This document shows positions 1 through 64,000 of a stretch of DNA of 64,000 bases, one piece after another. A model generated the notes under the pieces. The model had not been told where the DNA came from and did no database searches. It saw nothing but the letters and a program-made list of their open reading frames with translations. How positions within the stretch are numbered: the first letter of the stretch is position 1; each line of letters starts with the position of its first letter. The stretch comes from Bacteroidales bacterium (lineage in GTDB: Bacteria > Bacteroidota > Bacteroidia > Bacteroidales > FEN-979): the NCBI GenBank assembly GCA_963682005.1, contig OY820914.1, positions 4,644,979 through 4,708,978 on the forward strand, given 5' to 3'. The position numbers and the translations under genes were made by a program.

Positions 1-215
1 TCTGTTGTTCCTGTTGAAAGGATAGACCAGGTAGTACCGCCGTTGGTTGTCTTAATAACAGTCCCCCAGTAACCTGCCACATATCCTGTATTTTGGTCTG
101 CAAAGGAAATGGACATCAGTGTATTCCCTTGCGGCAGAGGGTTCTGCCAGGTCCATTGCGAAAAAGAAATTGCAGAAACAGAAGCAAACCATGCTAAGAG
201 GAATATTTTTTTCAT
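1..215 (-). CDS. Secreted BNR/Ycf48-like beta-propeller protein, N-terminal fragment (gene runs off the window start)
   Basis: Absent from the ORF track because it has no in-window stop. Reverse translation from the ATG at 215-213 gives MKKIFLLAWFASVSAISFSQWTWQNPLPQGNTLMSISFADQNTGYVAGYWGTVIKTTNGGTTWSIL. That is a signal peptide plus the same TTxGGxTW blade motif seen in 3016..4326 and 22316..24436. Confidence 0.6.
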   Translation of the reverse strand, partial: MKKIFLLAWFASVSAISFSQWTWQNPLPQGNTLMSISFADQNTGYVAGYWGTVIKTTNGGTTWSILSTGTT

Positions 216-259
216 AGGTTTATTTTTAACATTTGAACCTACCAGATTATTAATTCAGC

Positions 260-323
260 AAATCAACAAGTCAATAAGTCAACAAATCAATAAATCAATA
301 AATCAATAAATCAACAAGTCAAA
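260..323. repeat. Tandem 8-bp repeat, 8 units (AAATCAAT / AAGTCAAC variants)
   Basis: Read directly as aaatcaac aagtcaat aagtcaac aaatcaat x3 aaatcaac aagtcaaa. It fills the spacer between the start of gene 1..215 and the stop of 329..1120. Confidence 0.9.
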
Positions 324-328
324 GCTCA

Positions 329-1120
329 TTATCCTTTCCTCCCCGTAGTATGCGTGACGAAAAGGCCATCCTCCACCTCGTGGTTTTTCATTGCAATGTC
401 TGAATATCCGATGATCCTGTTCGTTATTTCTTCGGTAAATATTTGATCCTCCAGGTTGTGATACAGGATGGCATAAGTCTTTACCAGGTTGTAAAAAGCC
501 TCAAGGCCGATGATCGAGGGGGTGATATGACGAAAGAGGGACCTGATCTCTTTATAGCCTGAGCCTGTAAGAAGGAGTGGCAGTCCCGTGGAAATCCTCG
601 GGTGCGAACCATACCGCACGTAAAACTCAAATTCCTTTTGCCTGAATAGCTTCCATGTCTCATTCTCACTGTTCAGGTCGTCGATGTAGTATTCGGTGAT
701 CAGCAAAATGCCCTGCTCCTTCAACCTTTTATACGCTTCTGCAAGAAACCCTTTAACATCCGGCATATGTTCAACGGCAAACCGGGTATGGACCAAGTCA
801 TATTTCTCCATAGGGAAATGACCGTCGAAAAGGATATTCCGGAAGATAATGTTATCCCTGCCATGCTTTTCAGAGGCCCTTGCGATCAGTTTACTGTCCG
901 CATCAATCGCATCGAAGGATACATCCGGTAATTGCTTAGCCAGTCCATGGATAAAAGTACCATCTCCCGTTCCCACATCAAGGACGCGCCGGATGTCATT
1001 CCTGCCGGTCATTTCCTTGATAAATAAATATTCTCCGGGCGCAAATGCTTTTGTCTGCGCAACATAGCAATCCTCCACAAATTTGCTTCCGTCAAGGATC
1101 CGGGTGTTGATATTTTTCAT
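329..1120 (-). CDS. Class I SAM-dependent methyltransferase
   Basis: 263-aa ORF with ATG start. Motif I VLDVGTGDGTF and the downstream acidic/hydrophobic pattern are typical of the Rossmann-fold methyltransferase family. Confidence 0.8.
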   Translation of the reverse strand: MKNINTRILDGSKFVEDCYVAQTKAFAPGEYLFIKEMTGRNDIRRVLDVGTGDGTFIHGLAKQLPDVSFDAIDADSKLIARASEKHGRDNIIFRNILFDGHFPMEKYDLVHTRFAVEHMPDVKGFLAEAYKRLKEQGILLITEYYIDDLNSENETWKLFRQKEFEFYVRYGSHPRISTGLPLLLTGSGYKEIRSLFRHITPSIIGLEAFYNLVKTYAILYHNLEDQIFTEEITNRIIGYSDIAMKNHEVEDGLFVTHTTGRKG

Positions 1121-3015: not shown

Positions 3016-4326
3016 CTATTCTATTATCAGTTTTTGTACAACGGAGGATTGATCCGTTTTTACTTTGACAAAGTAAAATGATTTGGGCAGATCCTGCAAA
3101 TCCAGGGAGATGACAGTGCCCGGATTTGCATACGACCCGGAAAAGACAAGGTGACCTTCCAATGTAAAGACTTCAATTTCAACCTTGTTCAGCTTATCCG
3201 AAAATAACCGGATAAAGAGTTTCCCATCAGAAGGGTTCGGTGAGATTGAGATGGGTTTGTCAATTTGGCTTTTTTCCTTAATGTCTGTAAGGACCCCCGT
3301 GAATTTGTGGATGTTATTAAGGGGATAGTAGCTTCCTCCCAGCCACCCTGTGGCAGCACTTTTAAAATTTATAAAAGATGCATTATGAATATCCGAATCG
3401 ATCTCCAGGATCGTGGTGAACGAATCGGGGGTAAAAAAGATATCAGTACTTGCAGTATCAGGAGAGGTAGCAATATATCCGAACGGGATTCCCGGCACCC
3501 TGCTCATGCTTCCGAATGTGAATCGCGTATCCAGGTTGATATGAGTCCAGGAGGCACCGCCGTCATTCGTCTGGTACATGCTGTTTTCCACACCGGCCAG
3601 GTAAGCAACACCGTTCATTTCATCCGTAAAGCACAGGTTGATATATTCAGGAACGACCTCCGATACAGCCCAGTGAAGCCCCCTGTCAGAAGACCGGAAA
3701 CACCTTCCTTTGGATGTGGGGAACCAGATGGAATTGCCTGCAGCGGTGTAATTTCCCGATGTGCCTGTCTCGCCGGTCAGTGCGGGCGGAATATTGGTGG
3801 CCGGAACCCGCGTCCAGGTGTTCCCGCCATCAAAGGTCAGCTGGATCTCAAAATAGCCATCGGGGGGATCACCCATCACCAGGCAGGTATCTGCACTGAA
3901 CAGATGAATGAAATTGGCCCATCCTCCGGAGAATTGACTGGTCGTCTTCTTTGACCAGGTAGTTCCCCCATCAGTCGTTTTCCAAACCTGCCCTCCGTAA
4001 ACCGCTCCGTCAGTGAACAGATAGTAGCAGATGCTGGTATCCCATGCTGCCAGATGCTGGATCCATGGTGTTCCTGGAACAGGGATCTGCCTGAATTGCC
4101 AGGTATTACCTCCATCGGTCGTTTTTACAGCTTTCGAATACGCTACATACCCGTGATTGCGCTGATGGACTGTCCCCACCCAAACCGAATGATCATCAAC
4201 AATGGAAGTCCACCAGGAGAAATAGGCGGAAGTGTCATATGGATAATTCAATGGCATACTGACGAACTGGGCTGTGCCGGTTCGTGCTAATCCAAGCAGC
4301 AACAGGAAAAGAGTAAGTTTTTTCAT
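3016..4326 (-). CDS. Secreted BNR/Ycf48-like beta-propeller protein with T9SS C-terminal sorting domain
   Basis: Signal peptide MKKLTLFLLLLGLARTGTAQ. Repeated TTDGGNTW / TFDGGNTW / SSDRGLHW / TNDGGASW blades. The C-terminus ISPNPSDGKLFIRL...FYFVKVKTDQSSVVQKLIIE matches the Por secretion tail pattern. Confidence 0.7.
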   Translation of the reverse strand: MKKLTLFLLLLGLARTGTAQFVSMPLNYPYDTSAYFSWWTSIVDDHSVWVGTVHQRNHGYVAYSKAVKTTDGGNTWQFRQIPVPGTPWIQHLAAWDTSICYYLFTDGAVYGGQVWKTTDGGTTWSKKTTSQFSGGWANFIHLFSADTCLVMGDPPDGYFEIQLTFDGGNTWTRVPATNIPPALTGETGTSGNYTAAGNSIWFPTSKGRCFRSSDRGLHWAVSEVVPEYINLCFTDEMNGVAYLAGVENSMYQTNDGGASWTHINLDTRFTFGSMSRVPGIPFGYIATSPDTASTDIFFTPDSFTTILEIDSDIHNASFINFKSAATGWLGGSYYPLNNIHKFTGVLTDIKEKSQIDKPISISPNPSDGKLFIRLFSDKLNKVEIEVFTLEGHLVFSGSYANPGTVISLDLQDLPKSFYFVKVKTDQSSVVQKLIIE

Positions 4327-4327
4327 A

Positions 4328-4846
4328 TTAGAACCAGGTTTTTTCCATATACTTCTGATAATCCGGGAAGGTCTTTATTAGTTGAATTTCTTCAAGCCTT
4401 TTCCAGATATAGATATTAATTGAATAAATTATTGTCATGATCATCGAGGTGGTGGATTGATGGTATAAAGAACTTCCCACCATCCAGAGGATGAACGCAA
4501 GGTACATCGGATGCCTGAAATATTTATAGATCCCATTTGTTACCAAATCACCGTGATAATTTTCAAACTTTTTGATCATCAAAAGAGACCAGAAAAAGAG
4601 GACCATTCCCAATAAAAACGTTAATATTCCAAGGTATTTAATAACATCCGGCAATTGTAACTTGAAAGGATCAACAAATCCCAGCATGAACCATGAAACC
4701 CAAAGAATAATCATATTGAGGAATATTACCGGAAATACAAATTTACCTTCCGGGTTGATCTTGTCATTGATCTTTAAGAATTCATAACCCGTTCTGACAA
4801 TGTGGGTGACAATACTCACAGATAGAATGATAATGAATAGTTTCAT
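4328..4846 (-). CDS. Isoprenylcysteine carboxyl methyltransferase (ICMT/PEMT) family membrane protein
   Basis: 172 aa with 4-5 TM segments. C-terminal signature YKYFRHPMYLAFILWMVG is present. Its stop is 1 nt from the start of the upstream gene, suggesting an operon. Confidence 0.75.
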   Translation of the reverse strand: MKLFIIILSVSIVTHIVRTGYEFLKINDKINPEGKFVFPVIFLNMIILWVSWFMLGFVDPFKLQLPDVIKYLGILTFLLGMVLFFWSLLMIKKFENYHGDLVTNGIYKYFRHPMYLAFILWMVGSSLYHQSTTSMIMTIIYSINIYIWKRLEEIQLIKTFPDYQKYMEKTWF

Positions 4847-4989
4847 GGTTGATCAGGTTTTGCGTTACTTCAATCCATTCTATGAATAATGAACTGAGTT
4901 TCAATTATTGGGATTCTTTTATTCGCGTTATGTGTAACGAATTGTACTCCCTTTGACCACTGCCGTCCTGATGTCAGCAACCCTTTCTA

Positions 4990-5736
4990 TCAACATTTTA
5001 ATTCCTTCCCTTTTAAATAAGCGATCTCGAGATATTTCTTCCTTGTTTCAGGACTTACAGCTAAAATGGAGTGGAAATAAATATGGTCAACATTTTCAAT
5101 GCCCGGATATTTTAGGCTCCAGTCATCTATTGTTTTTTCCATGGAAGCTTTAAATCCTTTTTCCCTGTAAACTTTTTCGTTAAAAAATGTAGGCTGGATG
5201 ATAATTGCTTTCTTAATCTTCAGCAATGGGATGCGCCCGTCAGGATCGCCTTTCCAGCCGTTTTCGTTTAATTTGTATGCGAATCCATAGGTTAAAACCC
5301 TTTCCATCCATCCTTTGACCAAAGCTGGAAAGTGCATCCAGAAAACCTGGGTTATAAAAACCAGTACATCCGCTTCTGCTACTTTCTTTTGCTGCAACAG
5401 CACATCTTTCGGCTTTTGAGAATTAATAAGCTTTATCAGTTCCTCATCGGTCTTGTTCTTTATATACAGTTTTGCCAACAGTCTCTTTACCGGACCTCCG
5501 GCAAGCCCGACGATCATCGCCCGCATGTCCATCTGCTGAAACAGGTCTTTAGGCATGTCTTCATCCACAAAAAATGCAGAATCCATATCCTGAAATATGG
5601 GATTGAACTTGATTTTGTACAAATCAACAACCTCATATTGATGGCCTGCTTCTTTCAGACCCCTGACAAAATTGTCAAGAATGGCTTTTGTAAACGACAT
5701 TGGATTCGGATGGGCGTAAATGATTAAGGTTTTCAT
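4990..5736 (-). CDS. NAD(P)H dehydrogenase (quinone), flavodoxin-like fold family
   Basis: The N-terminus MKTLIIYAHPNPMSFTKAI is typical of the Flavodoxin_2 / NQO-type FMN reductase family. Length is 248 aa. Confidence 0.75.
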   Translation of the reverse strand: MKTLIIYAHPNPMSFTKAILDNFVRGLKEAGHQYEVVDLYKIKFNPIFQDMDSAFFVDEDMPKDLFQQMDMRAMIVGLAGGPVKRLLAKLYIKNKTDEELIKLINSQKPKDVLLQQKKVAEADVLVFITQVFWMHFPALVKGWMERVLTYGFAYKLNENGWKGDPDGRIPLLKIKKAIIIQPTFFNEKVYREKGFKASMEKTIDDWSLKYPGIENVDHIYFHSILAVSPETRKKYLEIAYLKGKELKC

Positions 5737-5874
5737 GGTGTACTGTTTTTTATTACGAAATATCGTTTCAAATTTTCGGGTTTCTGTTATCCTTACCCGC
5801 CGCCGTTAGCGGGACTTTCTCAACACAAAAGTTGCCTGTAATGCCGGCTTTCCGTTTGCTTTCGACCTTACGCA

Positions 5875-7263: not shown

Positions 7264-7373
7264 GGCTTCAAATTATGTCACCAAAATGCCGGTCGGCAGT
7301 CGTTATACCGTCTTTTTCACGTCACGCGTCACGCGTTACTTTTTCTGAATTTTGCATGTATTCCAGGCCGAAG

Positions 7374-7420
7374 GTTCGATCATATAAATATAAGAACATT
7401 ATGAATATACCAATACCCAT
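7374..7420 (-). mobile_element. Short fragment homologous to the 3' region of the group II intron (end of the RT ORF / start of domain V)
   Basis: gttcgatcatataaatataagaacattatgaatataccaatacccat aligns by eye with 20381..20427 of the intact intron (gttcgatcacataaatataagaactttatggatataccaattcccag). Confidence 0.5.
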
Positions 7421-8231: not shown

Positions 8232-8420
8232 ATTTTTAATTTTAATGATCGGGGCATATAGACGGGGATTACAATTGAATCCATTATACTGATTAAACTA
8301 TTTTTATTCAAGAACTAACTGCAACATCGCACAAAGATCTTAATTTCCGGTGACATGCCGTTGAGCGCCTTGTTGGTGGTTCCATTCCCGGACTCACAAG
8401 ATCACAACGCCGCAAGGTCA

Positions 8421-8487
8421 CAAAGTAACAAAGTAACGGTTAAACAGCTAAACAACTAAGCAACTAAACAGCTAAACAGCTAAACAG
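8421..8487. repeat. Tandem 8-bp repeats (CAAAGTAA x2, then CTAAACAG-type x6)
   Basis: Read directly. The array ends 5 nt before the katG stop codon at 8492-8494. Confidence 0.9.
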
Positions 8488-8491
8488 TTTA

Positions 8492-10714
<2,223 letters not shown>

Positions 10715-15804: not shown

Positions 15805-15885
15805 TGTGACCCTTAACCTTGTGACCCTGTGACCTTTCATTGCTCATTACTCATTACTCATTACTCATTACTCATTGCTCATTAT
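15805..15885. repeat. GTGACC-type units followed by tandem 7-bp repeat CATTACT x7
   Basis: Read directly as gtgaccc..gtgaccctgtgacc, then cattgct cattact x4 cattgct cattatt. Confidence 0.9.
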
Positions 15886-16012
15886 TCGTTCCCTCCCGGG
15901 AGGGGGTAATCTTGACGTGTTCCACCTTTACTACAAAGATTTCACCCCTCCGGGGTGAGAGGCTTCGCACCTCGGGCGCCGGACTTCGGGCCTCGGGTTC
16001 TGTGCTTCAGGA

Positions 16013-16079
16013 TTCTGACCTCTGACCTCTGACCGTCAAAAACCTACTGCCTACTGCCTATTGCCTATTTGCCTATTAC
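16013..16079. repeat. Tandem 7-bp repeats: CTCTGAC x3, then CTACTGC/CTATTGC x5
   Basis: Read directly. The same unit families recur at 47851-47886 and 25712-25725. Confidence 0.9.
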
Positions 16080-25019: not shown

Positions 25020-25434
25020 TTTGGAGTTTTAAATCATTAATGGCTTAACGATTATTAAACAGGTGCGATTACAATCTCAATAATACGATTTTGCATTATT
25101 ATGGAAAGTAGAACATCAAACGTATTGCAATTAGCATTACTCCCATAATTTTTTCCTAAGTAAAAATAATACAAATTAATACAAGTAATATATGTGGGGG
25201 TAATATTTTTGGCTGGTGAGGTGGTGAATAAAATGAAAAATTAAAAATTAAAAATTAATTTCTATCAGCCAGGATCCGTTGGCGTTGCAGATTCCTGCTT
25301 TCGCAGGAAAGACGGCCCGGTCTTAATAATTGAAGGGGATTGAACACCGGATATAACGAATTACAAAAAACTGTCAGGGTAAATCTTCACAGAAAAAGTA
25401 AGTTTTTCATGCGTTCCCGGTACTTTTTAACTGG

Positions 25435-25583: not shown

Positions 25584-25590
25584 ATGGAAT

Positions 25591-25618
25591 CGGAGGTCGG
25601 AGGTCGGAGGTCGGATGA
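25591..25618. repeat. Tandem 7-bp repeat CGGAGGT x3-4 (complement of the CTCCGAC/CTCTGAC family)
   Basis: Read directly. Confidence 0.85.
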
Positions 25619-25711
25619 CCGATGATAGATGATAGAAGATGGATAATAGATATTTTAGATTTTAGGTTTTAGATTCTATATACTTACCGGCAGTCTAATG
25701 CCTTCATGTTT

Positions 25712-25774
25712 CCTATTGCCTATTGCCTGGTGCCTGGTGCCTGGTGCCTGGTGCCTGGTGCCTGGTGCCTGGTG
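25712..25774. repeat. Tandem 7-bp repeat: CCTATTG x2 then CCTGGTG x7
   Basis: Read directly. The last unit ends 1 nt before the pfkA stop codon (25776-25778). Confidence 0.95.
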
Positions 25775-25775
25775 C

Positions 25776-26756
25776 CTATAATGCCAGAATCCGCGACACC
25801 TCAATCATCTCCAGGTTCAGGTCTTTGACGTTCTTGATCGCTTTATCAAAGGGGGTATAGACAACAGATTTATCGACCAGGCCAATCATAATCCCCTTTT
25901 CTCCGGCAAGCAATGCTTCCACAGCTTTATAACCCAGCATACTTGCCAGAACACGGTCGATGACTGTCGGGGAACCTCCCCGCTGGATATGTCCGAGAAC
26001 TGTGACGCGTGTATCCAGGCCGGGAATCCTTTCCCTGACTTTCCGGGCGATCTCCTCGGCGCCACCTTCATCATCACCTTCGGCCACGATCACGATGCCG
26101 GAGGTTTTATTCTTTCGCAGATCATGGTTCAGAAGCCTCGACAGGTTATCAATGTACGTTTTCGTCTCCGGCACCAGGATGAACTCGGCCCCGCAGGCAA
26201 TACCGGCACGCTGCGCGATGAATCCCGCATCTCGTCCCATCACCTCCAGGAAGAACAGCCGGTCATGCGAGGTGGCCGTGTCGCGGATCTTGTCAGCCGC
26301 ATCAATGACCGTATTGACAGCCGTATCAAAACCAATTGTATAATCCGTCCCGTAGAGGTCGTTATCGATGGTTCCCGGCAATCCGACCACAGGAATATTG
26401 AATTCCTTTATAAATATGTCGGCCCCCGTAAAGGTGCCGTTCCCGCCGATGGCCACCAGTGCATCGATGTTGAACTTTTTCAGGTTCTCATACGCCTTAA
26501 GCCTCCCTTCATACGACATGAAGTCCTTGCTCCGTGCAGTCTTCAGGATCGTTCCTCCGCGCTGGATGATATTCGATACCGAATGACTGTACATCCGCTC
26601 GAACTGTCCTTCGATCATCCCCTGGTATCCCCGACAGATCCCGAATACTTCAAGGTTTTCATAGATCGCTGTCCGAACCACCGCCCTGATCGCTGCATTC
26701 ATTCCGGGAGAATCCCCGCCCGAGGTCAGCACCCCGATCTTGTTTAATTTTGGCAT
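25776..26756 (-). CDS. pfkA: ATP-dependent 6-phosphofructokinase
   Basis: Start set at ATG 26756 (MPKLNKIGVLTSGGDSPGMNAAIRAVVR). Motifs GGDGS-like IGGNGTF, PGTIDND and MGR. The ORF-track extension to 26909 only translates tandem repeats. Confidence 0.93.
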   Translation of the reverse strand: MPKLNKIGVLTSGGDSPGMNAAIRAVVRTAIYENLEVFGICRGYQGMIEGQFERMYSHSVSNIIQRGGTILKTARSKDFMSYEGRLKAYENLKKFNIDALVAIGGNGTFTGADIFIKEFNIPVVGLPGTIDNDLYGTDYTIGFDTAVNTVIDAADKIRDTATSHDRLFFLEVMGRDAGFIAQRAGIACGAEFILVPETKTYIDNLSRLLNHDLRKNKTSGIVIVAEGDDEGGAEEIARKVRERIPGLDTRVTVLGHIQRGGSPTVIDRVLASMLGYKAVEALLAGEKGIMIGLVDKSVVYTPFDKAIKNVKDLNLEMIEVSRILAL

Positions 26757-26798
26757 AGTATTGTAGTTAAATCCGGAGGTAAAAATAGTAAAAAGTGA

Positions 26799-26882
26799 AG
26801 AGTGAAAAACGTAGAGTGAAAAATGTAGAGTGAAAAGTGTAGAGTGTAAAACGTATAGTGTAAAATGTAGAGTGTAAAGCGA
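26799..26882. repeat. Tandem 14-bp repeat AGAGTGAAAAAYGT, 6 units
   Basis: Read directly. It lies in the leader/promoter region upstream of pfkA. Confidence 0.9.
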
Positions 26883-26894
26883 ATAGTTATGTGA

Positions 26895-26925
26895 CTTTTC
26901 ACTTTTCACTCTTCACTTTTCACTT
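26895..26925. repeat. Tandem 7-bp repeat CTTTTCA x4, the inverse complement of the TGAAAAG core of the neighbouring 14-mer array
   Basis: Read directly. 26903-26919 is the perfect reverse complement of 26792-26808 (17 bp). Confidence 0.9.
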
Positions 26926-30854: not shown

Positions 30855-31958
30855 ATGACCACATTTTACAATAAACACAGGCTTTTCTTTATTATCGTTA
30901 CAATCCTTGTGATCGGGTTCCTGGCATGGTATTTCTCGAATATTGTTGTATTCATCCTGATCGCTGTGGTCATTTCAATCCTCGGCCAACCCCTGGTCAA
31001 CCTGATGGAAAAGGCCAGGTTCCGGAATCTGAAACTCCCCAGGGCATTCACAGCCTTTACAGCTTTGCTGATCATTGTCAGCATCGTCGCCGGGTTCATC
31101 AGTTTCTTTATTCCACTGGCTGTCAAGGAAGCCACGCTGATTTCAAACCTCGACATGGCGTCCCTCCTTGATCATTACAAGGATTCGATCAACGAGCTGC
31201 AGGAGCAATTGATGAAGTTTGGTGTTCTGCCGGAAAATACAACACTGGGAACCTTTCTTTCACGGGAAATTAAATCCTTCCTAAGTGTTGTGACCTTTTC
31301 GAATATGCTGGGAAATATACTGGCAATAACAGGAACCTTCTTTTTTGATGTTTTTTCTGTTTTGTTCCTGGCCTATTTTTTCCTTTATGATGAGAATCTT
31401 TTCATGAATATTTTACTGGCCATCGTTCCTGAAAAATACAATGACCAGACCCGTAATGTCACGGCCAAAAGCAAGCTGTTGCTGACACGGTATTTCATGG
31501 GACTTGTGGCGGATGTGATCATGATGATCATTTCCTATATCATTGGACTCACCATTGTAGGGGTGAAAGGAGCAGTAGTAATAGGCATTTTCGGGGGCAT
31601 TGTAAACATCATACCTTACATCGGGCCCATTATTGCGACTGTAACAGGTGTGCTGCTTGGTGCAACAAGTGTGATCGCAGCGGGTGATTATGTTGCGTTC
31701 TGGCCGCTTGTCATCAAGATCCTGATCGTATTTTCAACCGTTATATTGCTGGATAATATCCTCTATATCCCATTCATTTACGGGAAAAGCGTTAAAGCGC
31801 ACCCCGTGGAGATCTTCATCGTGATCATTGCCGCTGCAAGCATTGGCGGCATCATCGGGATGATCATCGCCGTGCCGGTTTACACTTTGTTGAGGATCAT
31901 TGCAAAGGAGTTCCTGAGCCAGTTCAGGCTGGTGCAGAAGATGACGGACAGATTGTAA
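30855..31958 (+). CDS. AI-2E family transporter (PerM/UPF0118)
   Basis: Polytopic membrane protein of about 367 aa with the typical architecture of this family. I prefer the ATG at 30855 over the GTG at 30834. Confidence 0.8.
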   Translation: MTTFYNKHRLFFIIVTILVIGFLAWYFSNIVVFILIAVVISILGQPLVNLMEKARFRNLKLPRAFTAFTALLIIVSIVAGFISFFIPLAVKEATLISNLDMASLLDHYKDSINELQEQLMKFGVLPENTTLGTFLSREIKSFLSVVTFSNMLGNILAITGTFFFDVFSVLFLAYFFLYDENLFMNILLAIVPEKYNDQTRNVTAKSKLLLTRYFMGLVADVIMMIISYIIGLTIVGVKGAVVIGIFGGIVNIIPYIGPIIATVTGVLLGATSVIAAGDYVAFWPLVIKILIVFSTVILLDNILYIPFIYGKSVKAHPVEIFIVIIAAASIGGIIGMIIAVPVYTLLRIIAKEFLSQFRLVQKMTDRL

Positions 31959-32098
31959 TGAGGTAATGAGATAATGAGATAATGAGATAATGAGATAATG
32001 AGATAGTGAGATAGTATGACTGCGACTTGGTGACTTGATGACTTGATGACCTTATGACCTTGTGACCTGGTGACCTGGTGACCTGGTGACTTGGTGAC
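31955..32098. repeat. Tandem 8-bp repeat, 18 units, drifting from GTAATGAG/ATAATGAG to CTGGTGAC
   Basis: Read directly in a perfect 8-bp register. The array starts inside the stop codon of 30855..31958. Confidence 0.95.
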
Positions 32099-37059: not shown

Positions 37060-37091
37060 AAGGTTTGAAGGTATGAAGGTTTGAAGGCTTG
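37060..37091. repeat. Tandem 8-bp repeat AAGGTTTG x4
   Basis: Read directly. Confidence 0.85.
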
Positions 37092-37125
37092 AATATCCTG
37101 GGTGAAGCAATGTCAAAGGATGAAT

Positions 37126-37153
37126 CGTAATTCGTAATCCGTAATTCGTAATT
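37126..37153. repeat. Tandem 7-bp repeat CGTAATT x4, ending exactly at the cutC ATG
   Basis: Read directly. The same unit recurs at 54255-54294. Confidence 0.9.
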
Positions 37154-37926: not shown

Positions 37927-41198
<3,272 letters not shown>

Positions 41199-47742: not shown

Positions 47743-47743
47743 T

Positions 47744-47886
47744 CAGGCTGCAGGCTGCAGGCTGCAAGCTCCAGGCTTCAAGCTTCAGGCAGAAAGCTAT
47801 TTTCTCTATTCTCTATTCTCTATTCTCTGTTTTCCTTCCTCTGACCTCTGACCTCCGACCTCTGACCTCTGACTCCCGACTTCAGA
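47744..47886. repeat. Composite tandem 7-bp array: CAGGCTG-type x7, CTATTCT x4, CTCTGAC-type x7
   Basis: Read directly. It occupies essentially the whole convergent spacer between the stops at 47742 and 47898. Confidence 0.95.
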
Positions 47887-47897
47887 CAAACAATCAA

Positions 47898-48461: not shown

Positions 48462-48549
48462 GGTATTTCAGGTTTTCAATGTTGTTACAAAAATAAAACA
48501 ATATTCGGAATTATTACAGGCTCCGGGCCTCGGGCGCCGGGTTTCAAAT

Positions 48550-48605
48550 TTCTATTTTCCATCCTCTATTATCTGTCATCTATCTTCTATTCTCAGTCTT
48601 CAGTT
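48550..48605. repeat. Degenerate tandem 7-bp repeat (TTCTATT / ATCTATC / CTCAGTC), about 8 units
   Basis: Read directly. It lies in the spacer between the frr start and the pyrH stop. Confidence 0.75.
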
Positions 48606-48651
48606 CTCCATGACAACCGACCGCACGCAACTCGCAGCCCGAAGCTCGCAG

Positions 48652-49356
48652 CTATCGAACCAGCGTCCCAACCTTCTCCCCGCGAATAACCTTGAGAAGG
48701 TTGCCAGATACATTCATGTCGAAAACAACGATCGGGAGTTTATTTTCCCTGCAAAGTGTGAATGCCGTAAGATCCATGATCTTCAGGTTTTTCTCATAAG
48801 CTTGGTCGAAGGAAAGTGAATCAAATTTCGTTGCGGTCTTATCCTTTTCAGGATCCGCTGTATATACACCATCCACACGGGTTCCTTTTAAAAGCGCATC
48901 TGCACCAATTTCAACAGCCCTTAATGCAGAAGCTGAATCCGTGGTAAAGAAGGGATTTCCCGTACCACCGCTGATGATCACCACATATCCCTGGTCAAGG
49001 TAATCGATGGCTTTGCGCCTGCTCATTGATTCACACAAAGGATCAATAGCAATGCCACCCAATACTTTTGCGCGTATCCCTGTCTTTTCCAGTGCTGATT
49101 GTAAGGCAAGACTATTAATGACGGTGGCCAGCATTCCCATGTAATCGCCCTGTACCCGGTCCATTCCCGAATTTGTCCCCTGTAATCCCCTGAAAATATT
49201 ACCACCGCCGATCACTATAGCCACCTGGACTTTTTCATCAACGATCGATTTTACATCAGCTGCATAATCGGACAACCTTTCCGGGTCAATGCCATATTGC
49301 TGATTGCCCATCAATGATTCACCGCTTAATTTGAGTAATATCCGGTTGTATTTCAT
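48652..49356 (-). CDS. pyrH: UMP kinase
   Basis: YNRILLKLSGESL, IVIGGGNIFRG and GGTGNPFFTTDSASALRA. I prefer the ATG at 49356 over the TTG at 49374. Confidence 0.95.
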   Translation of the reverse strand: MKYNRILLKLSGESLMGNQQYGIDPERLSDYAADVKSIVDEKVQVAIVIGGGNIFRGLQGTNSGMDRVQGDYMGMLATVINSLALQSALEKTGIRAKVLGGIAIDPLCESMSRRKAIDYLDQGYVVIISGGTGNPFFTTDSASALRAVEIGADALLKGTRVDGVYTADPEKDKTATKFDSLSFDQAYEKNLKIMDLTAFTLCRENKLPIVVFDMNVSGNLLKVIRGEKVGTLVR

Positions 49357-49400
49357 GTTGTAATTATTTTTCAAAATCAGGTACGGGTTTACAGTTCTCA

Positions 49401-49464
49401 GTCGGCAGTCGGCAGTCGGCAGTCAATACGTCAATATTCACTATTTCGCTATTTCGCTATTTCG
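49401..49464. repeat. Tandem 7-bp GTCGGCA x3 and tandem 8-bp CTATTTCG x3
   Basis: Read directly. The units are the same as at 7291-7302 and 37972-38043. Confidence 0.9.
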
Positions 49465-49471
49465 CTTTCTG

Positions 49472-54253: not shown

Positions 54254-54254
54254 T

Positions 54255-54294
54255 TTCGTAATTCGTAATTGCATTCGTAATCCGTAATTCGTAC
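54255..54294. repeat. Tandem 7-bp repeat TTCGTAA (same family as CGTAATT), about 5 units
   Basis: Read directly. It fills the spacer between the coaD stop and the start of 52847..54253. Confidence 0.85.
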
Positions 54295-54298
54295 TTTT

Positions 54299-55617: not shown

Positions 55618-55674
55618 TAAACGTCCGGATTGTCATTTTATTTTAAGCAGTAAGAATGCGATTGAGCTGGCAAC

Positions 55675-56370: not shown

Positions 56371-56383
56371 GTGGAGAAATTAT

Positions 56384-56419
56384 TCTAATTGATCTAATTG
56401 ATCTAATTGACCTAATTGA
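56384..56419. repeat. Tandem 9-bp repeat TCTAATTGA x4
   Basis: Read directly. An inverted copy lies at 56468-56484. Confidence 0.9.
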
Positions 56420-56577
56420 ACTAAAATCTCCTGATAATTGGGATTTGGGTTTTCATTAGCGTTTAGAAATTAGATCAATTAGAAATTTTTTACTAGAATT
56501 CTTATTACAAATAATGCAGGCAAAAAAAAAGGATTACCCTGTTTCCAGGTAATCCCTTTTCCAATCAAAATATCTTG

Positions 56578-57414: not shown

Positions 57415-57417
57415 GGA

Positions 57418-57438
57418 AATTTCTAATTTCTAATTTCT
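57418..57438. repeat. Tandem 7-bp repeat AATTTCT x3
   Basis: Read directly. It starts 4 nt upstream of the tsf ATG. Confidence 0.85.
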
Positions 57439-57486
57439 AAAACTAAATAATAAATTTATCCTGAATTCGGAAATCCGGGTCCAGAC

Positions 57487-58419: not shown

Positions 58420-58442
58420 AATTAATTATTATCTGTATAAGA

Positions 58443-58829
58443 TTAACGTTTACTAAATTGAAATCTTTTACGGGCTTTCTTCTGTCCGAATTTTTTCCTT
58501 TCAACCATTCTCGGGTCTCTTCTCATGAGTCCTTTGGCTTTCAATGCGGGACGAAATTCCTCATTGATCTTGCAGAGGGCACGTGAAATGGCAAGGCTCA
58601 GCGCTTCTGCCTGGCCGGTAATCCCGCCGCCGTCGAGGTTGACCTTAACATCGTATTTCCCGAGGTTATTTGTTATTTCAAAAGGTTCTAATACCTGGAA
58701 TTGCAGGATCTTGGTAGGAAAATAGACTGTAAAATCGCGGTCATTGACAGTAATGGTTCCCTGTCCCTCCTTAACATAAATCCGTGCGATGGCGGTTTTT
58801 CTCCGGCCAAGGGCGTTTATTACTTCCAT
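58443..58829 (-). CDS. rpsI: 30S ribosomal protein S9
   Basis: 128 aa. GRRKTAIARIYV ... GGGITGQAEA ... the C-terminal KKARKRFQFSKR is canonical. Confidence 0.95.
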   Translation of the reverse strand: MEVINALGRRKTAIARIYVKEGQGTITVNDRDFTVYFPTKILQFQVLEPFEITNNLGKYDVKVNLDGGGITGQAEALSLAISRALCKINEEFRPALKAKGLMRRDPRMVERKKFGQKKARKRFQFSKR

Positions 58830-61372: not shown

Positions 61373-61376
61373 ACAT

Positions 61377-61826
61377 TCATCCTCTTTTCGGAAATTGATT
61401 CCAGATCAGCCAGTAATAACCAAATGACTCCATCAGCTCCGTGTATTTGGAAAAATCAACCGGTTTTACGAGATAACTGTTTGCATGATATTTATAGGCT
61501 CTTGCGATATCGATCTCCATGGTGGAGGTTGTAAGAATCACAACTGGAATATGGCTGGTTTCTTCTTTCATTCGCAGTTGCTGGAGCACATCCATCCCAT
61601 CTACCTTAGGCAGGCGAAGATCAAGCAGGATCAGGTGGGGCCATCCGGTCTCAATAACACCTTTTTCGGAAGCCGGATCAAAAAAATAATCGAGAGCCGC
61701 CTGCCCGTCGTGGATATGGATCAGGTTATTGGCAACCCGGCTGGTTTCCAGGTTCCTCCTGACGATCTCTGCATGTGCAGGGTCATCTTCAATGAGCAAT
61801 ATTGTGATCGGTTCTCCCTGAATCAT
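61377..61826 (-). CDS. Single-domain response regulator (CheY-like receiver, no output domain)
   Basis: 149 aa. ILLIEDDPAHAEIV, LILLDLRLPKVDGMDVL, PVVILTTS and ANSYLVKP. Confidence 0.9.
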   Translation of the reverse strand: MIQGEPITILLIEDDPAHAEIVRRNLETSRVANNLIHIHDGQAALDYFFDPASEKGVIETGWPHLILLDLRLPKVDGMDVLQQLRMKEETSHIPVVILTTSTMEIDIARAYKYHANSYLVKPVDFSKYTELMESFGYYWLIWNQFPKRG

Positions 61827-61897
61827 TCGATGTGGAATTGGATCTTCCCAAAAAACTATAAAAATAAGTCTAATTTTTCGATTTTGCTTTTTTCATT

Positions 61898-64000
61898 TCA
61901 GGTTTTTATTCGGCGGACCGGCAGGGTAAGGAAAACAATAGTACCTTGATCTTTTCCATCTGATTCTATCCAGACTCTCCCCTTATGGATCTCAATAATC
62001 CGCTGAACAATGGCAAGGCCAACGCCCGTACCCTCACTATTGGGATCGAGCTTCTCGAAAATGTGAAAAATTCTTTTCTGGTAAGCTGGTTCGATCCCGA
62101 TACCATTGTCTTTTACCGAAATCACAAATTCTTTTTCCGTTTTGCGGATATTAATTTCCAGAACCGGCTTTTCCTTTGTATTTCTGAATTTAACCGCATT
62201 GTCAAAAAGATTTTGAAAAACATCGACAAGCCGCTGATGATCACAGCACAAAATAAAATTCTCTTCAGGAAGCCTCACTTCCATTCCTGATCCAGAAATT
62301 CGTCCGGCGACAAGCTTCAAAGCATCACTCACGATGGTGAGAAAGGACACCTCCTCAAAGGAATATGTCCTTCTGCCGATCCGGGAAAGGGCCAGGATCT
62401 CATCCAGCCTCCTGTCCATCTTTTCTGCTGCATTCTTGACATACTCCATGTCCCTGTTCATGCGCTCCTCATCATCCTTCACAAAATCCTCTTCCAGGTA
62501 TCCGAGAAAGGTTTTGATGGTCACAAGCGGGCTTTTCAGATCATGAGATACAGTATAAATAAACTGAGACATCTCCTCATTCTGGTGCTTCAATGTTTCT
62601 TCGATATTCTTGTAGGATGTAATATCCTGGATGGTACCGAACATCTTAATCACTTTCCCGTCCTCATCAATGTTCAGCTCTCCCAGCCCATGCACCCAGC
62701 GGGGAACCTCATCATTCAGCCGGATGATCCTGTACTCCATGTCAAAGGGCATCTTCTTACCGGCAACATAATCAAAAAAATAGGACTGCATCCTGTCGCG
62801 GTCTTCAGGATGGATAAAAGAAAGCCAGCTGGATATTGTTTTGGTGAAGGTCTCAGGGATACCGAAAATCTCATCAAGAGCAGAAGAACTGGTCCATGAC
62901 TGCGTTGACACATCCAGTTCATAATGTCCTACAGATGCAACGCGTTGTGACTGGCGAAGCAGTTTTTCACTTTGCCGGACCATTTCCTCGGCGATTTTAC
63001 GTTCAGTAATGACGTCAAAGACTGAAATAAAATAGCCCTGTCCGGGACTATAAACCGAAATGGAGAACCATATTGCAAGGGAGTGAACATAGATTTCGGT
63101 TTTTTCCGGCACACCTGAAAGAGCCACCCTGCCACAAATTCTGAACAGCTGATCATCCAGGACCCTGATCCCTTCTATGACCTCCGTGACTTTTTTGCCG
63201 GTTACATCCCTGATACCAATGAGATGTTCAAAGATCTTATTTACTTCAAGGAAGATAAAATCGAGTGGCTGATCGTCCTCAAAGATCATTTTGCAATAGG
63301 CAAATCCCTCCTGCATGCTGTTAAAAAGTGAATGATACCGGTTTTCACTCTCCAGCAATGCATTTTCCGCCCGCTTCCTGTCTGTGATATCACGTATGAT
63401 AAAGATCACCTGTTTTAGTCCTTCATAGTTGATGGAATGAGCACTGACTTCAACCTGAATGCAGGTACCGTCTTTCTTCATTAATCCAGATTCAAATACA
63501 ACGCCGGATGAAAAGAAGCTTATCTGATCAGCAATGCTCTTTTCTGCCGAAGGATCACTGATCTCAAGATCCGTGATCCTGAATTGAGTAATCTCATTTC
63601 CGGTATATCCGAACATACCGGAAGCCTTAACATTTGCATCTATGATCCTGAGTTCAGGATCACAGATAAGGATCGCATCGTTTGCATGCCGTGCCAGTTG
63701 CTCATACTGCAGTGCAAGGATATTTTTCTCTTTTTCCAGGGCAAGCTGCCGGCTCATGAACTTCAACTGCTGCTGCCGGGAAAAATGCGAAATTGTAAAG
63801 TAGGCAAGGATCAGGAGCAGGATTCCTGCAAAGAAATAATTCCGCCAGAGAGCGCGGTGAACGGATGCATATTCATGCTTATCGATTTTCGAAACCAGGT
63901 ACCATGGTGATTCCGGTATTTTACTGATATAGGCGAGGACTTCTGCCCCTCTGTAATCAATAGCACTGACAATGCCGGTTTTCCCTGAATATGCCATCGA
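61898..64000 (-). CDS. Multi-PAS sensor histidine kinase (HisKA + HATPase_c), probably truncated at the window edge
   Basis: One TM (FFAGILLLILAYFTISHF), 3-4 PAS blocks (RDITDRK spacers), H-box VSHDLKSPL, and the N/G boxes NLFDNAVKF and DNGIGI...GTGVGLAIV. The reading frame is still open at 64000. Confidence 0.85.
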   Translation of the reverse strand, partial: SMAYSGKTGIVSAIDYRGAEVLAYISKIPESPWYLVSKIDKHEYASVHRALWRNYFFAGILLLILAYFTISHFSRQQQLKFMSRQLALEKEKNILALQYEQLARHANDAILICDPELRIIDANVKASGMFGYTGNEITQFRITDLEISDPSAEKSIADQISFFSSGVVFESGLMKKDGTCIQVEVSAHSINYEGLKQVIFIIRDITDRKRAENALLESENRYHSLFNSMQEGFAYCKMIFEDDQPLDFIFLEVNKIFEHLIGIRDVTGKKVTEVIEGIRVLDDQLFRICGRVALSGVPEKTEIYVHSLAIWFSISVYSPGQGYFISVFDVITERKIAEEMVRQSEKLLRQSQRVASVGHYELDVSTQSWTSSSALDEIFGIPETFTKTISSWLSFIHPEDRDRMQSYFFDYVAGKKMPFDMEYRIIRLNDEVPRWVHGLGELNIDEDGKVIKMFGTIQDITSYKNIEETLKHQNEEMSQFIYTVSHDLKSPLVTIKTFLGYLEEDFVKDDEERMNRDMEYVKNAAEKMDRRLDEILALSRIGRRTYSFEEVSFLTIVSDALKLVAGRISGSGMEVRLPEENFILCCDHQRLVDVFQNLFDNAVKFRNTKEKPVLEINIRKTEKEFVISVKDNGIGIEPAYQKRIFHIFEKLDPNSEGTGVGLAIVQRIIEIHKGRVWIESDGKDQGTIVFLTLPVRRIKT

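What the first reader, a model, noticed from the sequence alone, without database searches (positions are those of the whole stretch)
1..64000. Intergenic spacers are systematically filled with 7-9 bp tandem-repeat arrays drawn from a small recurring vocabulary (STRR-like, in a Bacteroidota context)
At least 18 spacers in 64 kb carry short tandem arrays: 260, 7291, 8421, 15805, 16013, 25237, 25591, 25712, 26799/26895, 31955, 37060/37126, 37972, 47744, 48550, 49401, 54255, 56384 and 57418.

The units are not random low complexity. The same families recur at distant loci and on both strands:
- CTCTGAC at 16013 and 47851, with its complement CGGAGGT at 25591.
- CTATTTCG at 37972 and 49441.
- CGTAATT at 37126 and 54255.
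- GTCGGCA at 7291 and 49401.
- CCTATTG/CTACTGC at 16044 and 25712.
- GTGACC/CTGGTGAC at 15805 and 32070.
- CATTACT at 15837, against its complement-like ATAATGAG at 31963.

The arrays very often begin 0-5 nt from a stop codon (25774/25776, 31955/31958, 47744/47742, 8487/8492) or run up to a start codon (37153/37154, 57438/57414). Coding sequence is almost free of them.

Heptameric STRR repeats are an established feature of heterocystous cyanobacteria. I do not know of an equivalent described system in Bacteroidota. Their function, whether transcript-end processing, protein binding, recombination or spacing, is open.
Basis: partly seen in the sequence, partly recalled or inferred. Interest (0 to 1): 0.8.

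Follow-up and report, generated by a model that had tools for sequence, protein, structure and literature searches.

The report
Short tandem repeats fill gene spacers
About a third of the gaps between genes in this Bacteroidota genome segment hold runs of 7-8-base tandem repeats. This kind of repeat is already known from cyanobacteria, Xanthomonas and a few Bacteroidetes, and here it most likely grew in place by DNA copying slippage, although two of the repeat words are unexpectedly common in unrelated phage genomes.

Summary
TRF finds 26 non-overlapping arrays (period 6-9, at least 3 copies) in 64 kb, against 0.03 in shuffles. All lie in the 12.4% of the window that is non-coding. Three independent assemblies reproduce them.

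The organism is a Bacteroidia relative of Prolixibacteraceae. Array density is about 20 times that of 80 other Bacteroidota loci. Relatives with 80-87% SecA identity share the trait.

Arrays abut stop codons and stop short of start regions. They are gained and lost between species. At coaD>tlpA a single AATTACGA next to the start codon in relatives corresponds to an array here.

The best reading is heptamer-dominated long simple-sequence repeats (STRR-like). They arise in place by slippage and strand switching in unconstrained DNA. Some form long hairpins.

This is a new member of a known kind. MacGregor 2015 already noted heptamer repeats in five Bacteroidetes.

One point is unexplained. The two tested heptamers that recur within the window, TCGTAAT and CCTCTGA, occur as arrays in 65 and 38 IMG/VR stretches, against 4-5 for scrambles.

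The parts
251..322 (.). (AAATCAAT/C)n array, about 8-9 copies. It lies 6 nt from the stop of gene 329-1120 (-) and 34 nt from the next start.
8420..8487 (.). (ACAAAGTA)2 followed by (TAAACAGC)6. The block ends 4 nt from the katG stop.
15805..15884 (.). (TGTGACCC)about 4 followed by (TCATTAC)7, inside an 853-nt spacer.
15963..16077 (.). Decayed CYTCGGG heptamers, then (TCTGACC)3, then (CCTACTG/CCTATTG)5.
   Evidence: D14, D17
25163..25258 (.). AT-rich 10-mer and (AAAATTA)4 arrays.
25590..25675 (.). (TCGGAGG)3.7, (GATGATA)4.4 and (ATTTTAG)3.4, abutting one another.
25712..25777 (.). (CCTATTG)2 followed by (CCTGGTG)7.7, a perfect array that overlaps the pfkA stop by 2 nt.
26787..26925 (.). (AGTGAAAAATGTAG)6.6 and its inverted partner (ACTTTTC)4.6. 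Together they form a long-range hairpin (z = -6.7) and fill the spacer between the 26924 stop and the pfkA start.
31956..32098 (.). (TAATGAGA)7 followed by (GACYTGRT)9. The gene's TAA stop is part of the first unit.
37060..37093 (.). (AAGGTTTG)4, 17 nt after a stop codon.
37125..37153 (.). (TCGTAAT)4, running directly into the cutC ATG. This is the AATTACG family that is also common in phage contigs.
37883..37917 (.). (AATTATG)5, overlapping the last codons and the stop of cutC. A 56-nt module is shared with 44920-44975.
   Evidence: (D16)
37972..38045 (+). (ATTTCGCT)9, 72 nt and in frame. It lies between the only ATG (37933) and the mature GH2 domain.
47744..47887 (.). (CAGGCTG)about 7, (TTCTCTA)4 and (CCTCTGA)about 7. 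Together they fill the convergent spacer. The region is less structured than shuffles (z = +1.9 and +2.7).
48521..48653 (.). Decayed CCTCGGG heptamers, then (TTTCTAT)about 6, then (CGCAGCT)4, which overlaps the pyrH stop.
   Evidence: (D14)
49399..49466 (.). (CAGTCGG)3.7 followed by (TTCGCTAT)3.8, ending 5 nt from the secA stop. The AGCGAA core is shared with the same spacer in L085, L087 and L090.
54254..54298 (.). (TTCGTAA)about 6, filling the coaD>tlpA spacer. Relatives L398 and L087 have a single AATTACGA or AATTATGA at the start codon instead.
56383..56487 (.). (TCTAATTGA)4.6 with an inverted partial copy and (TTAGAAA)3. Forms a hairpin (z = -6.5). It is a roughly 140-nt insertion after the conserved tsf terminator at 56515-56560.
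57418..57440 (.). (AATTTCT)3.3, 3 nt upstream of the tsf start.
7290..7336 (.). Weak arrays of 2 to 2.4 copies (GTCGGCA, CGTCACG).

Best explanation
These are heptamer- and octamer-unit long simple-sequence repeats, of the same kind as cyanobacterial STRR and the 5-11-nt LSSR of Mrazek. They have proliferated in one Bacteroidia lineage.

**Shown.**
- Arrays occupy only DNA that is free of coding constraint.
- They run up to stop codons and sometimes include them.
- In four spacers they leave 34-42 nt free before the next start. The four arrays that come within 15 nt of a start are AT-rich (13-33% GC).
- They are add-ons to spacers that are short and array-free in relatives.
- They differ in presence, unit and length between related species.

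**Inferred mechanism.**
- A 7-8-nt stretch is duplicated by replication slippage.
- The array then expands and contracts, because loops of this size are thought to escape mismatch repair.
- Units mutate, and variant units spread locally. This gives abutting sister arrays such as CCTATTG then CCTGGTG.
- Strand switching at palindromic cores (AATT, AAATTT) creates an inverted copy next to an array, which makes long hairpins.
- Selection only trims what intrudes into genes, promoters and translation-start regions.

Most arrays are therefore dispensable filler. They nevertheless change UTR length and structure. A few, notably the hairpin arrays 3' of secA in relatives, may have been co-opted as 3' stem-loops.
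For: **Enrichment and confinement to non-coding DNA.** There are 26 arrays against 0.03 in shuffles, and 1,007 of 1,035 array bases are non-coding.

**Period spectrum.** Period 7 is commonest, then 8, then 9, both here and in 160 other Bacteroidota loci. This matches the general prokaryotic LSSR pattern reported in PMC4679880 and PMC4692102.

**Lineage-specific density.**
- Window: 4.06 arrays per 10 kb.
- 80 Bacteroidota Tsf loci: 0.21 per 10 kb.
- 80 SecA metagenome loci: 0.48 per 10 kb.
- Relatives at 80-87% SecA identity: 0.8-3.4 per 10 kb.
- Relatives at 74% identity: none.

**Arrays are add-ons to existing spacers.** The canonical terminator after tsf is conserved in the window, L086, L087 and L398. 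Only the window has an extra roughly 140 nt of arrays behind it.

**In-place origin.** Relatives L398 and L087 have a single AATTACGA or AATTATGA at the tlpA start codon. The window has about 6 units there, and the array created a second in-frame ATG.

**Turnover between species.** The 89%-identical relative P0003 has 36-37-nt secA>pyrH and pyrH>frr spacers, too short for more than about five units; its DNA could not be fetched. The window has 118 and 193 nt there. L398 has arrays in the radical-SAM/melibiase spacer, where the window has 21 nt.

**No consistent orientation.** Shared units occur in both orientations relative to transcription.

**Gradual unit drift inside composite arrays** is visible directly in the sequence.

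**Residual periodicity.** Lag-7 and lag-8 self-matches persist outside the called arrays, as expected for decayed arrays.

**Plain arrays are not structured.** They fold less well than shuffles, so they are not terminator hairpins.
Against: - **The unit vocabulary is not random.** Identical units recur within the window more than expected (P about 0.01-0.03).
- **ATTTCGCT recurs across species.** It appears in six arrays across the window and L087.
- **Two window heptamers are unexpectedly common elsewhere.** (TCGTAAT)3 and (CCTCTGA)3 occur in 65 and 38 IMG/VR stretches, which fall into 55 and 34 unrelated clusters with GC 0.24-0.70. Composition-matched scrambles give 4-5 stretches.
- **Orientation bias in phage contigs.** AATTACG arrays there face genes in the forward sense 69 times against 34 in reverse.
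- **Position is retained while SecA diverges.** The secA>pyrH spacer carries arrays in 6 of 7 relatives at 80-89% SecA identity, four of them with an AGCGAA core.
- **Hairpin pairing is maintained.** The L087 and L090 hairpins keep pairing through 2 compensatory changes and one symmetric indel. That suggests selection, or templated correction of the palindrome.
- **The preference for 7 nt is not explained by slippage alone.**
- **No copy-number polymorphism was seen.** However, all three assemblies appear to come from one sample or project.
Confidence: 0.58

Rival explanations
1. The arrays are functional cis-elements. Each unit would be a binding site, read in register by a protein. Candidates are an OB-fold, Csp- or S1-like RNA binder, or a DNA-binding or nucleoid protein that recognises AATT-containing units. 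The arrays would tune translation start, mRNA 3'-end stability or local chromosome structure.
For: - The cosmopolitan heptamers TCGTAAT and CCTCTGA are 8-16 times commoner than scrambles across unrelated phage contigs.
- AATTACG arrays in those contigs show an orientation bias of 69:34 relative to genes.
- Many phage arrays sit 10-30 nt upstream of starts. This resembles TAACTGA in Beggiatoaceae (PMC4679880).
- The secA 3' hairpin is conserved with compensatory changes.
- AATT is enriched in the units: 7 of 31 against a null mean of 2.6 (P=0.015).
- Deleting the heptamer repeats in Nostoc altered recO promoter activity (bioRxiv 10.1101/2022.06.06.494920).
Against: - In the window the same unit occurs in both orientations relative to genes.
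- Orthologous spacers in close relatives lack arrays or carry different units.
- The genes involved are housekeeping genes with no common theme.
- No candidate binding protein was identified.
- Only two scramble controls were run.
Confidence: 0.2
2. The arrays are parts of small mosaic mobile or recombining elements, comparable to REP/BIME. These would be copied between spacers as modules, which would explain the shared vocabulary.
For: - L086 carries the same ordered composite in two adjacent spacers, with one of its units also in a third: GAATGAA, then AAATTAAAAATTACGA, then ATAAAGTTY, then AGCTCATC, then AGCTAAG.
- The window has 20-56-nt modules shared between spacers (D3, D12, D14, D16 and D17).
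- CAGTCGG is in the secA>pyrH spacer here, but downstream of frr and inverted in L398.
- Phage contigs carry many copies.
Against: - No transposase or RAYT-like gene is present among the window proteins scanned or annotated.
- There are no conserved termini and no target duplications.
- The flanks of shared arrays are unrelated.
- The tlpA array has a single-copy seed in place in relatives.
Confidence: 0.12
3. The arrays are contingency (phase-variation) loci. Copy-number changes would switch the adjacent genes on and off.
For: - (ATTTCGCT)9 is in frame between the ATG and the mature GH2 domain. Gain or loss of one 8-nt unit would shift the frame.
- The tlpA array creates an alternative in-frame ATG.
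Against: - Most arrays are 3' of genes or between housekeeping genes such as tsf, secA, pyrH, frr and pfkA.
- The units are 7-8 nt long and mostly non-coding.
- Three assemblies show identical copy numbers.
Confidence: 0.06
4. The arrays are an assembly or sequencing artefact.
For: None was found. One Logan contig ends inside the array at 47844, as is usual for short-read assemblers at repeats.
Against: - Three assemblies agree on the arrays base for base: the window itself, a short-read assembly and a long-read assembly.
- Related species from other projects carry similar arrays at the same spacers.
Confidence: 0.01

Closest known systems
STRR (short tandemly repeated repetitive sequences) of heterocystous cyanobacteria (Mazel et al. 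1990, cited from my own knowledge; mentioned in PMC4692102)
   Same: - Heptamer units in tandem arrays of a few to about 10 copies.
- Intergenic location.
- Several unit families dispersed on both strands.
- Function unknown.
   Different: - The phylum is Bacteroidota, not cyanobacteria.
- None of the STRR1-3 units (CCCCAGT, TTGGTCA, CAACAGT) is present.
- Octamers are also frequent here.
- Many arrays here are composite, or are paired with an inverted copy.
Long simple-sequence repeats with 5-11-nt units (Mrazek, Guo & Shah 2007, as summarised in PMC4679880 and PMC4692102)
   Same: - Heptamers are the dominant class.
- Mostly non-coding.
- Sporadic phylogenetic distribution.
- Polymerase slippage is the proposed origin.
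   Different: - That survey's ten genomes richest in 5-11-nt repeats, as summarised in PMC4679880, included no Bacteroidetes.
- The density here is high: 12.7% of non-coding bases and 4 arrays per 10 kb.
TAACTGA and other heptamer direct repeats in Beggiatoaceae, cyanobacteria and five Bacteroidetes (MacGregor 2015, PMC4679880)
   Same: - Intergenic heptamer arrays close to start and stop codons.
- Mixed with other heptamers.
- Absent from the same spacer in close relatives.
- The same unit is found in unrelated phyla.
   Different: - TAACTGA itself is absent here.
- There is no consistent forward orientation upstream of starts in the window.
- Many different units occur here, rather than one dominant unit.
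GGGAATC repeats of Xanthomonas and GGGGA(T/C)T repeats of Nostoc (Rehm et al. 2015, PMC4692102)
   Same: [quoted passage not shown]
- Some occur as inverted pairs able to form stem-loops.
- They lie close to ORF ends.
   Different: - Those units are G-rich and form G-quadruplexes. The units here are diverse and mostly not G-rich.
- A few phage arrays drift from AATTACG to AATTAGG to AATTGGG.
REP/BIME mosaic intergenic elements of enterobacteria (from my own knowledge)
   Same: - Located in intergenic DNA, often 3' of genes.
- Mosaic combinations of a small motif set in both orientations.
- Hairpin-forming.
   Different: - The REP unit is a roughly 35-nt imperfect palindrome, not a tandem 7-8-mer.
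- REPs are mobilised by RAYT transposases, and none was seen here.
Pervasive tandem repeats of Borg elements (PMC9879509, abstract)
   Same: - Many near-perfect tandem repeat regions.
- Rapidly evolving, recently formed and arising independently.
   Different: - Borgs are archaeal extrachromosomal elements.
- Many of their repeats are inside genes and create disordered protein regions.

Membership tests
LSSR with 5-11-nt units (Mrazek 2007 sense) | Tandem repeats of a 5-11-nt unit that are longer than expected by chance for the genome's composition. | tested here: met
   26 arrays against 0.03 in dinucleotide-preserving shuffles.
LSSR with 5-11-nt units (Mrazek 2007 sense) | Heptanucleotide units are the commonest class, and the arrays are mainly non-coding. 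| tested here: met
   Period counts are 7:18, 8:9 and 9:1. 1,007 of 1,035 array bases are non-coding.
Cyanobacterial STRR | Tandem heptamers in intergenic DNA, in several dispersed families. | tested here: met
Cyanobacterial STRR | The specific STRR1-3 unit sequences, and occurrence in heterocystous cyanobacteria. | tested here: not met
   No two-unit (or longer) arrays of CCCCAGT, TTGGTCA or CAACAGT are present. The organism is Bacteroidota.
TAACTGA repeat network (MacGregor 2015) | Direct repeats of TAACTGA, mostly forward and a few nt upstream of start codons. | tested here: not met
   No TAACTGA tandem is present in the window. Only 5 of about 30 arrays lie within 15 nt of a start.
REP/BIME-type mobile mosaic elements | A conserved palindromic unit of about 20-40 nt, with a cognate RAYT or transposase. 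| tested here: not met
   The units are 7-9 nt direct repeats. No transposase was found among the proteins scanned or annotated. The rest of the genome was not available.
Phase-variation contingency SSR | A repeat within a coding region or promoter whose copy number varies between cells or strains and switches expression. | tested here: inconclusive
   Only the arrays at 37974 and 54255 lie within a reading frame. There were no copy-number differences among the three assemblies. Read-level data were not available.
Intrinsic terminators | A GC-rich hairpin followed by a U-run at the 3' end of a gene. | tested here: not met
   Plain arrays fold less well than shuffles (z = +1.8 to +2.7). The real tsf terminator is separate from the arrays. 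The terminator scan was not enriched. The palindromic arrays in L087 and L090 could act as terminators, but this was not tested.
Known RNA families (Rfam 15) | A match to a curated covariance model. | tested here: not met
   Only group II intron models match, at 20296-22094.

The most novel reading that the evidence does not exclude
There may be a cosmopolitan 'heptamer vocabulary'. A small set of specific 7-mers (AATTACG, CCTCTGA, TAACTGA and AATT-containing relatives) would be preferentially amplified or retained as arrays. This would hold in unrelated bacteria and their phages whatever their GC content (0.24-0.70). The cause would be a conserved sequence-specific factor that recognises or generates them, either a protein that binds in register or a property of the replisome. 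On this reading the arrays in this window would be one lineage's heavy use of that shared system.
Probability: 0.17. Interest if true: 0.75.

Novelty: new member of a known kind. Interest (0 to 1): 0.4.

Why it matters
**What this adds.** It gives a well-documented, unusually dense Bacteroidia example of a repeat class whose origin and function have stayed unresolved since 1990. Several related species are available here, so gain, loss, unit drift and inversion of arrays can be followed at orthologous spacers.

**Practical consequences.**
- Such arrays break short-read contigs.
- They mislead start-codon calling. Three ORFs in this window are extended into arrays.
- They can create in-frame leader peptides.

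**If the cross-taxon preference holds.** A full census confirming the preference for particular heptamers would point to an unknown sequence-specific mechanism shared by bacteria and phages.

Tried and rejected
- **Sigma-70 promoter and terminator scans**. Counts were no different from shuffles. The consensus is also wrong for Bacteroidota promoters, so the scans were uninformative.
- **Rfam searches** at gathering and E-value thresholds. Nothing matched at the arrays.
- **Strain polymorphism.** The exact-protein look-ups returned only contigs from the same ERR12015701/ERZ21878447 data. These were identical apart from three 1-nt indels outside the arrays.
- **The two closest relatives** (89% SecA identity; P0002 and P0003) returned no DNA. 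Only gene maps were available.
- **Shared units as one duplicated flanking segment.** Rejected, because the flanks are unrelated.
- **Consistent orientation relative to transcription or to the plus strand.** About 3:4 and 5:2 by my manual tally of the shared or similar families. Neither is significant.
- **Cross-species near-matches of units** (one mismatch or fewer). The null rate is about 3% per pair, so these are not evidence on their own.
- **Single-strand self-complementarity as the reason some units are popular.** It holds for AATT units but not for CCTCTGA or TAACTGA.
- **Literature search for the exact array sequences.** No prokaryotic paper was found.
- **The Mrazek 2007 paper itself** was not held in the library.
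- **Host of phage contig L195.** Its portal protein is Mu-like. Matches are below 55% identity, so the host remains unknown.

Full report

Yes. With a uniform cut-off (period 6-9, at least 3 copies, score >=40) there are 26 non-overlapping arrays covering 1,035 bases.

One hundred dinucleotide-preserving shuffles of the window give a mean of 0.03 such arrays. Shuffles of the non-coding DNA alone give none.

I built a gene map from the ORF list, corrected for three ORFs that a mechanical caller extends into arrays. On that map:
- non-coding DNA is 12.4% of the window;
- it holds 1,007 of the 1,035 array bases;
- arrays make up 12.7% of it.

After the called arrays are removed, the rest of the non-coding DNA still shows an excess of self-matches at lags 7 and 8 (0.292 and 0.287, against about 0.27 at neighbouring lags). 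Coding DNA shows only the codon period. Part of the remaining spacer DNA is therefore made of decayed arrays.

The 18 listed sites fall in about 15 of about 40 spacers. 'Systematically filled' overstates it, but a third of spacers is still extraordinary.

**2. Is it an artefact?**

No. Three assemblies agree on every array.
- A Logan short-read contig from run ERR12015701 is 100% identical to window 47844-58471.
- Two ENA long-read contigs from ERZ21878447 match 39662-58459 and 27154-39685. One has only three 1-nt indels, all outside arrays. The other has no differences.

These probably come from one sample, so they say nothing about polymorphism.

**3. Whose genome is it?**

- Five proteins carry the T9SS C-terminal sorting domain.
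- The nearest Tsf in one-genome-per-species GTDB is 74% identical, from a Prolixibacteraceae MAG. Next come Bacteroidales MAGs at about 60%.
- The nearest SecA proteins are 89%, 89% and 87% identical. The 87% protein is from GCA_026391355.1, a 'Bacteroidetes bacterium' MAG whose 23-kb neighbourhood is syntenic with the window.

**4. How unusual is the density?**

With the same cut-off:

| Sequence set | Arrays per 10 kb |
|---|---|
| Window | 4.06 |
| 80 Bacteroidota loci around tsf (1.31 Mb) | 0.21 |
| 80 metagenome loci around secA (1.11 Mb) | 0.48 |

In the tsf set, 61 of the 80 loci have no array at all.

The trait follows the clade. Relatives at 80-87% SecA identity (L085, L086, L087, L090 and L398) have 0.8-3.4 per 10 kb. 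Those at 74% (L088, L089) and the 74%-Tsf Prolixibacteraceae MAG have none. A few unrelated Bacteroidota loci (L131, L138, L105 and L107) are also rich, so the distribution is sporadic.

The period spectrum is 7, then 8, then 9, both here and in the other loci.

**5. Anatomy**

- **Abutting arrays.** Arrays with different but related units often abut. Examples are CCTATTG then CCTGGTG at 25712-25777, CAGGCTG then TTCTCTA then CCTCTGA at 47744-47887, and a gradual drift across 8400-8487 and 32024-32098.
- **Contact with stop codons.** Eleven arrays touch or overlap a stop codon (-21 to 10 nt). In three the stop overlaps the array end by 2-3 nt, and in one the last seven codons lie inside the array.
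- **Contact with start codons.** Five arrays lie within 15 nt of a start. The four that abut only a start are AT-rich (13-33% GC). In four other spacers the array stops 34-42 nt before the next start.
- **Spacer type.** The single convergent spacer is full of arrays. The single divergent spacer (28067-28189) has none.
- **Structure.** Plain arrays fold less well than shuffles (z = +1.8 to +2.7). Two spacers hold an array plus its inverted copy and fold into long hairpins: 26787-26925 (z = -6.7) and 56383-56484 (z = -6.5).
- **Known RNA families.** No Rfam family matches any array.

**6. Comparison of orthologous spacers**

The block rpsB-tsf-ubiE-omp-coaD-tlpA-secA-pyrH-frr is syntenic in the close relatives.

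- **tsf>ubiE.** A textbook terminator after tsf is conserved in the window, L086, L087 and L398. Only the window has a further roughly 140 nt of arrays behind it. Arrays are additions, not the terminator.
- **coaD>tlpA.** L398 reads ...CAAATTACGAATG and L087 reads ...CCAATTATGAAG, with the ATG as the start codon. The window has about six AATTACG-type units there and a second in-frame ATG. With two sequenced relatives (L398, L087) showing a single unit, and P0002's spacer being only 27 nt, the array most parsimoniously expanded in place from a single-copy seed. L086 and L087 also carry unrelated arrays at the coaD end of this spacer.
- **secA>pyrH.** Arrays are present in the window and in L085, L086, L087, L090 and L398. 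Four of these share an AGCGAA core: AGCGAAAT in the window and L087, a degenerate variant (AGGTAGCG … AGCGAAAT) in L090, and ACAGCGA in L085. The 89% relative P0003 has only a 36-nt spacer there.
- **Other spacers.** pyrH>frr, omp>coaD, rpsB>tsf and the spacer after frr are patchy. ubiE>omp and tlpA>secA never carry arrays. L398 has arrays between the radical-SAM and melibiase genes, where the window has 21 nt.
- **Palindromic arrays in L087 and L090.** Their secA 3' arrays are near-perfect palindromes of octamer units (dG -56 and -47 kcal/mol; z = -13 and -11). Between the two species the stem is kept through two A-U to G-C double changes and one symmetric deletion.
- **Repeated composite in L086.** The same ordered composite of five motifs occurs in two adjacent spacers, with one of its units and an inverted part of the composite in a third.

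**7. The vocabulary**

Within the window, identical units (allowing rotation and strand) recur more than expected. There are 3 heptamer pairs against 0.38 (P=0.013) and 1 octamer pair against 0.028 (P=0.027). Near-matches are barely above chance. ATTTCGCT is found in six arrays across the window and L087.

The unexpected result came from exact three-unit searches of IMG/VR:

| Three-unit array searched | Stretches found | Independent similarity clusters | GC range |
|---|---|---|---|
| (TAACTGA)3, a known widespread unit | 107 | 27 | 0.28-0.63 |
| (TCGTAAT)3 | 65 | 55 | 0.24-0.67 |
| (CCTCTGA)3 | 38 | 34 | 0.42-0.70 |
| (TGCCTGG)3, a non-recurrent window unit | 10 | not clustered | not measured |
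| (ATCGTTA)3, scramble | 5 | not clustered | not measured |
| (TTCGATA)3, scramble | 4 | not clustered | not measured |
| STRR1 (CCCCAGT)3 | 5 | not clustered | not measured |
| (ATTTCGCT)3 | 1 | not clustered | not measured |

- One Mu-like phage contig (L195, GC 0.55) has 12 AATTACG arrays in 10 kb, several as inverted pairs between genes.
- In these contigs AATTACG faces genes in the forward sense 69 times against 34.
- The arrays often sit just upstream of ribosome-binding sites.
- Units containing AATT are enriched in the window: 7 of 31 against 2.6 (P=0.015).
- I found no paper that mentions these arrays.
- With only two scrambles as controls, this is a lead rather than a result.

**8. 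What it most likely is**

The weight of evidence favours arrays that are born and grow in place by replication slippage in DNA that selection leaves alone. The evidence for this is:
- confinement to unconstrained DNA;
- expansion up to gene ends;
- the add-on nature of arrays in conserved spacers;
- a single-copy seed at an orthologous site;
- patchy gain and loss among species;
- unit drift within arrays;
- both orientations being used;
- the heptamer-then-octamer spectrum shared with other bacteria.

Inverted partners would arise by strand switching at palindromic unit cores, and selection would trim the edges.

This is the LSSR or STRR kind of repeat. The literature for this kind already reports that:
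- heptamers are the dominant class;
- polymerase slippage is the proposed origin;
- the same spacers are occupied in sister species, with different lengths and sequences;
- occasional inverted pairs occur.

These points come from PMC4679880 and PMC4692102. MacGregor 2015 noted TAACTGA and 'other heptamer direct repeats' in five Bacteroidetes, so the phylum is not new either.

What slippage alone does not explain is the preference for 7 nt, the retention of array position and core at secA>pyrH, the maintained hairpins, and the cross-taxon popularity of certain units. For that reason I give the functional-site and mosaic-element readings a combined one-third.

**9. Verdict**

Novelty is 'new member of a known kind'. 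Interest is moderate, raised by the clean comparative series and by the unexplained cosmopolitan heptamers.

Noticed in passing
window 20296-22094 (-): A complete group II intron. Rfam matches D1-D4 at 21974-22094 and D5/D6 at 20296-20371. The RT/maturase ORF is at 20400-21623 (RVT_1 plus GIIM). The intron sits directly upstream of the likely start (about 20269) of gene 19328-20269.
   Followed up: partly
window 7374-7419 and 15549-15658: Two intergenic fragments are 75-91% identical to the 3' part of the group II intron (20344-20453). They are probably intron remnants. Both lie in spacers that also carry arrays.
   Followed up: no
window 25434-25556: There are 5.6 near-perfect copies of a 22-bp unit, GTTGACGATATCTTCCCAAATA (two helical turns). 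They lie 415-540 nt upstream of gene 24504-25019. The arrangement looks iteron-like or like an operator array, and differs from the 7-8-mers.
   Followed up: no
window 37933-38060 (+): (ATTTCGCT)9 is 72 nt, in frame and free of stops. It lies between the only ATG and the mature GH2 beta-galactosidase domain (NDWENPG...). It encodes part of a hydrophobic leader (…[17 protein letters not shown]|QQ). Gain or loss of one unit would shift the frame.
   Followed up: partly
window 54254-54274 (-): The AATTACG array upstream of the tlpA-like gene contains a second in-frame ATG. The two possible N-termini are MQLRITKMKDN... and MKDN... Gene callers disagree: 475 aa against 468 aa.
   Followed up: partly
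window about 39685; L084 12533-18026: Long-read contig ctg42233l of the same project is identical up to window 39685, inside the GH2 gene. It then continues into an element that encodes an AEP-type primase and a phage integrase. This is either a strain-level insertion variant or a chimeric join.
   Followed up: no
window 6257-7143 (-): Six roughly 150-nt (50-aa) coding repeats, 62-73% identical, inside T9SS-sorted protein 5875-7263. BNR/Ycf48-like repeat motifs recur in 22316-24436 and 3016-4326.
   Followed up: no
L195 (IMGVR_UViG_3300020045_012626), 3649-9100: This is a Mu-like phage contig (portal, terminase, endolysin; GC 0.55). It has 12 (AATTACG)n arrays in 10 kb, several as array-loop-inverted-array hairpins between genes. 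L253 (GC 0.58) likewise has 9 matches to (CCTCTGA)3 within 13 kb, lying just before starts.
   Followed up: partly
L086 13289-13438, 14144-14247, 2784-2870: The same ordered composite of five short motifs or arrays occurs in two adjacent spacers of one relative, and one of its units (with an inverted part of the composite) in a third. This suggests whole-spacer copying or conversion between neighbouring spacers.
   Followed up: partly
L087 13289-13360; L090 2985-3050: The secA 3' spacers are near-perfect palindromes built from octamer repeats. Between the two species there are two compensatory base-pair changes and one symmetric deletion.
   Followed up: yes
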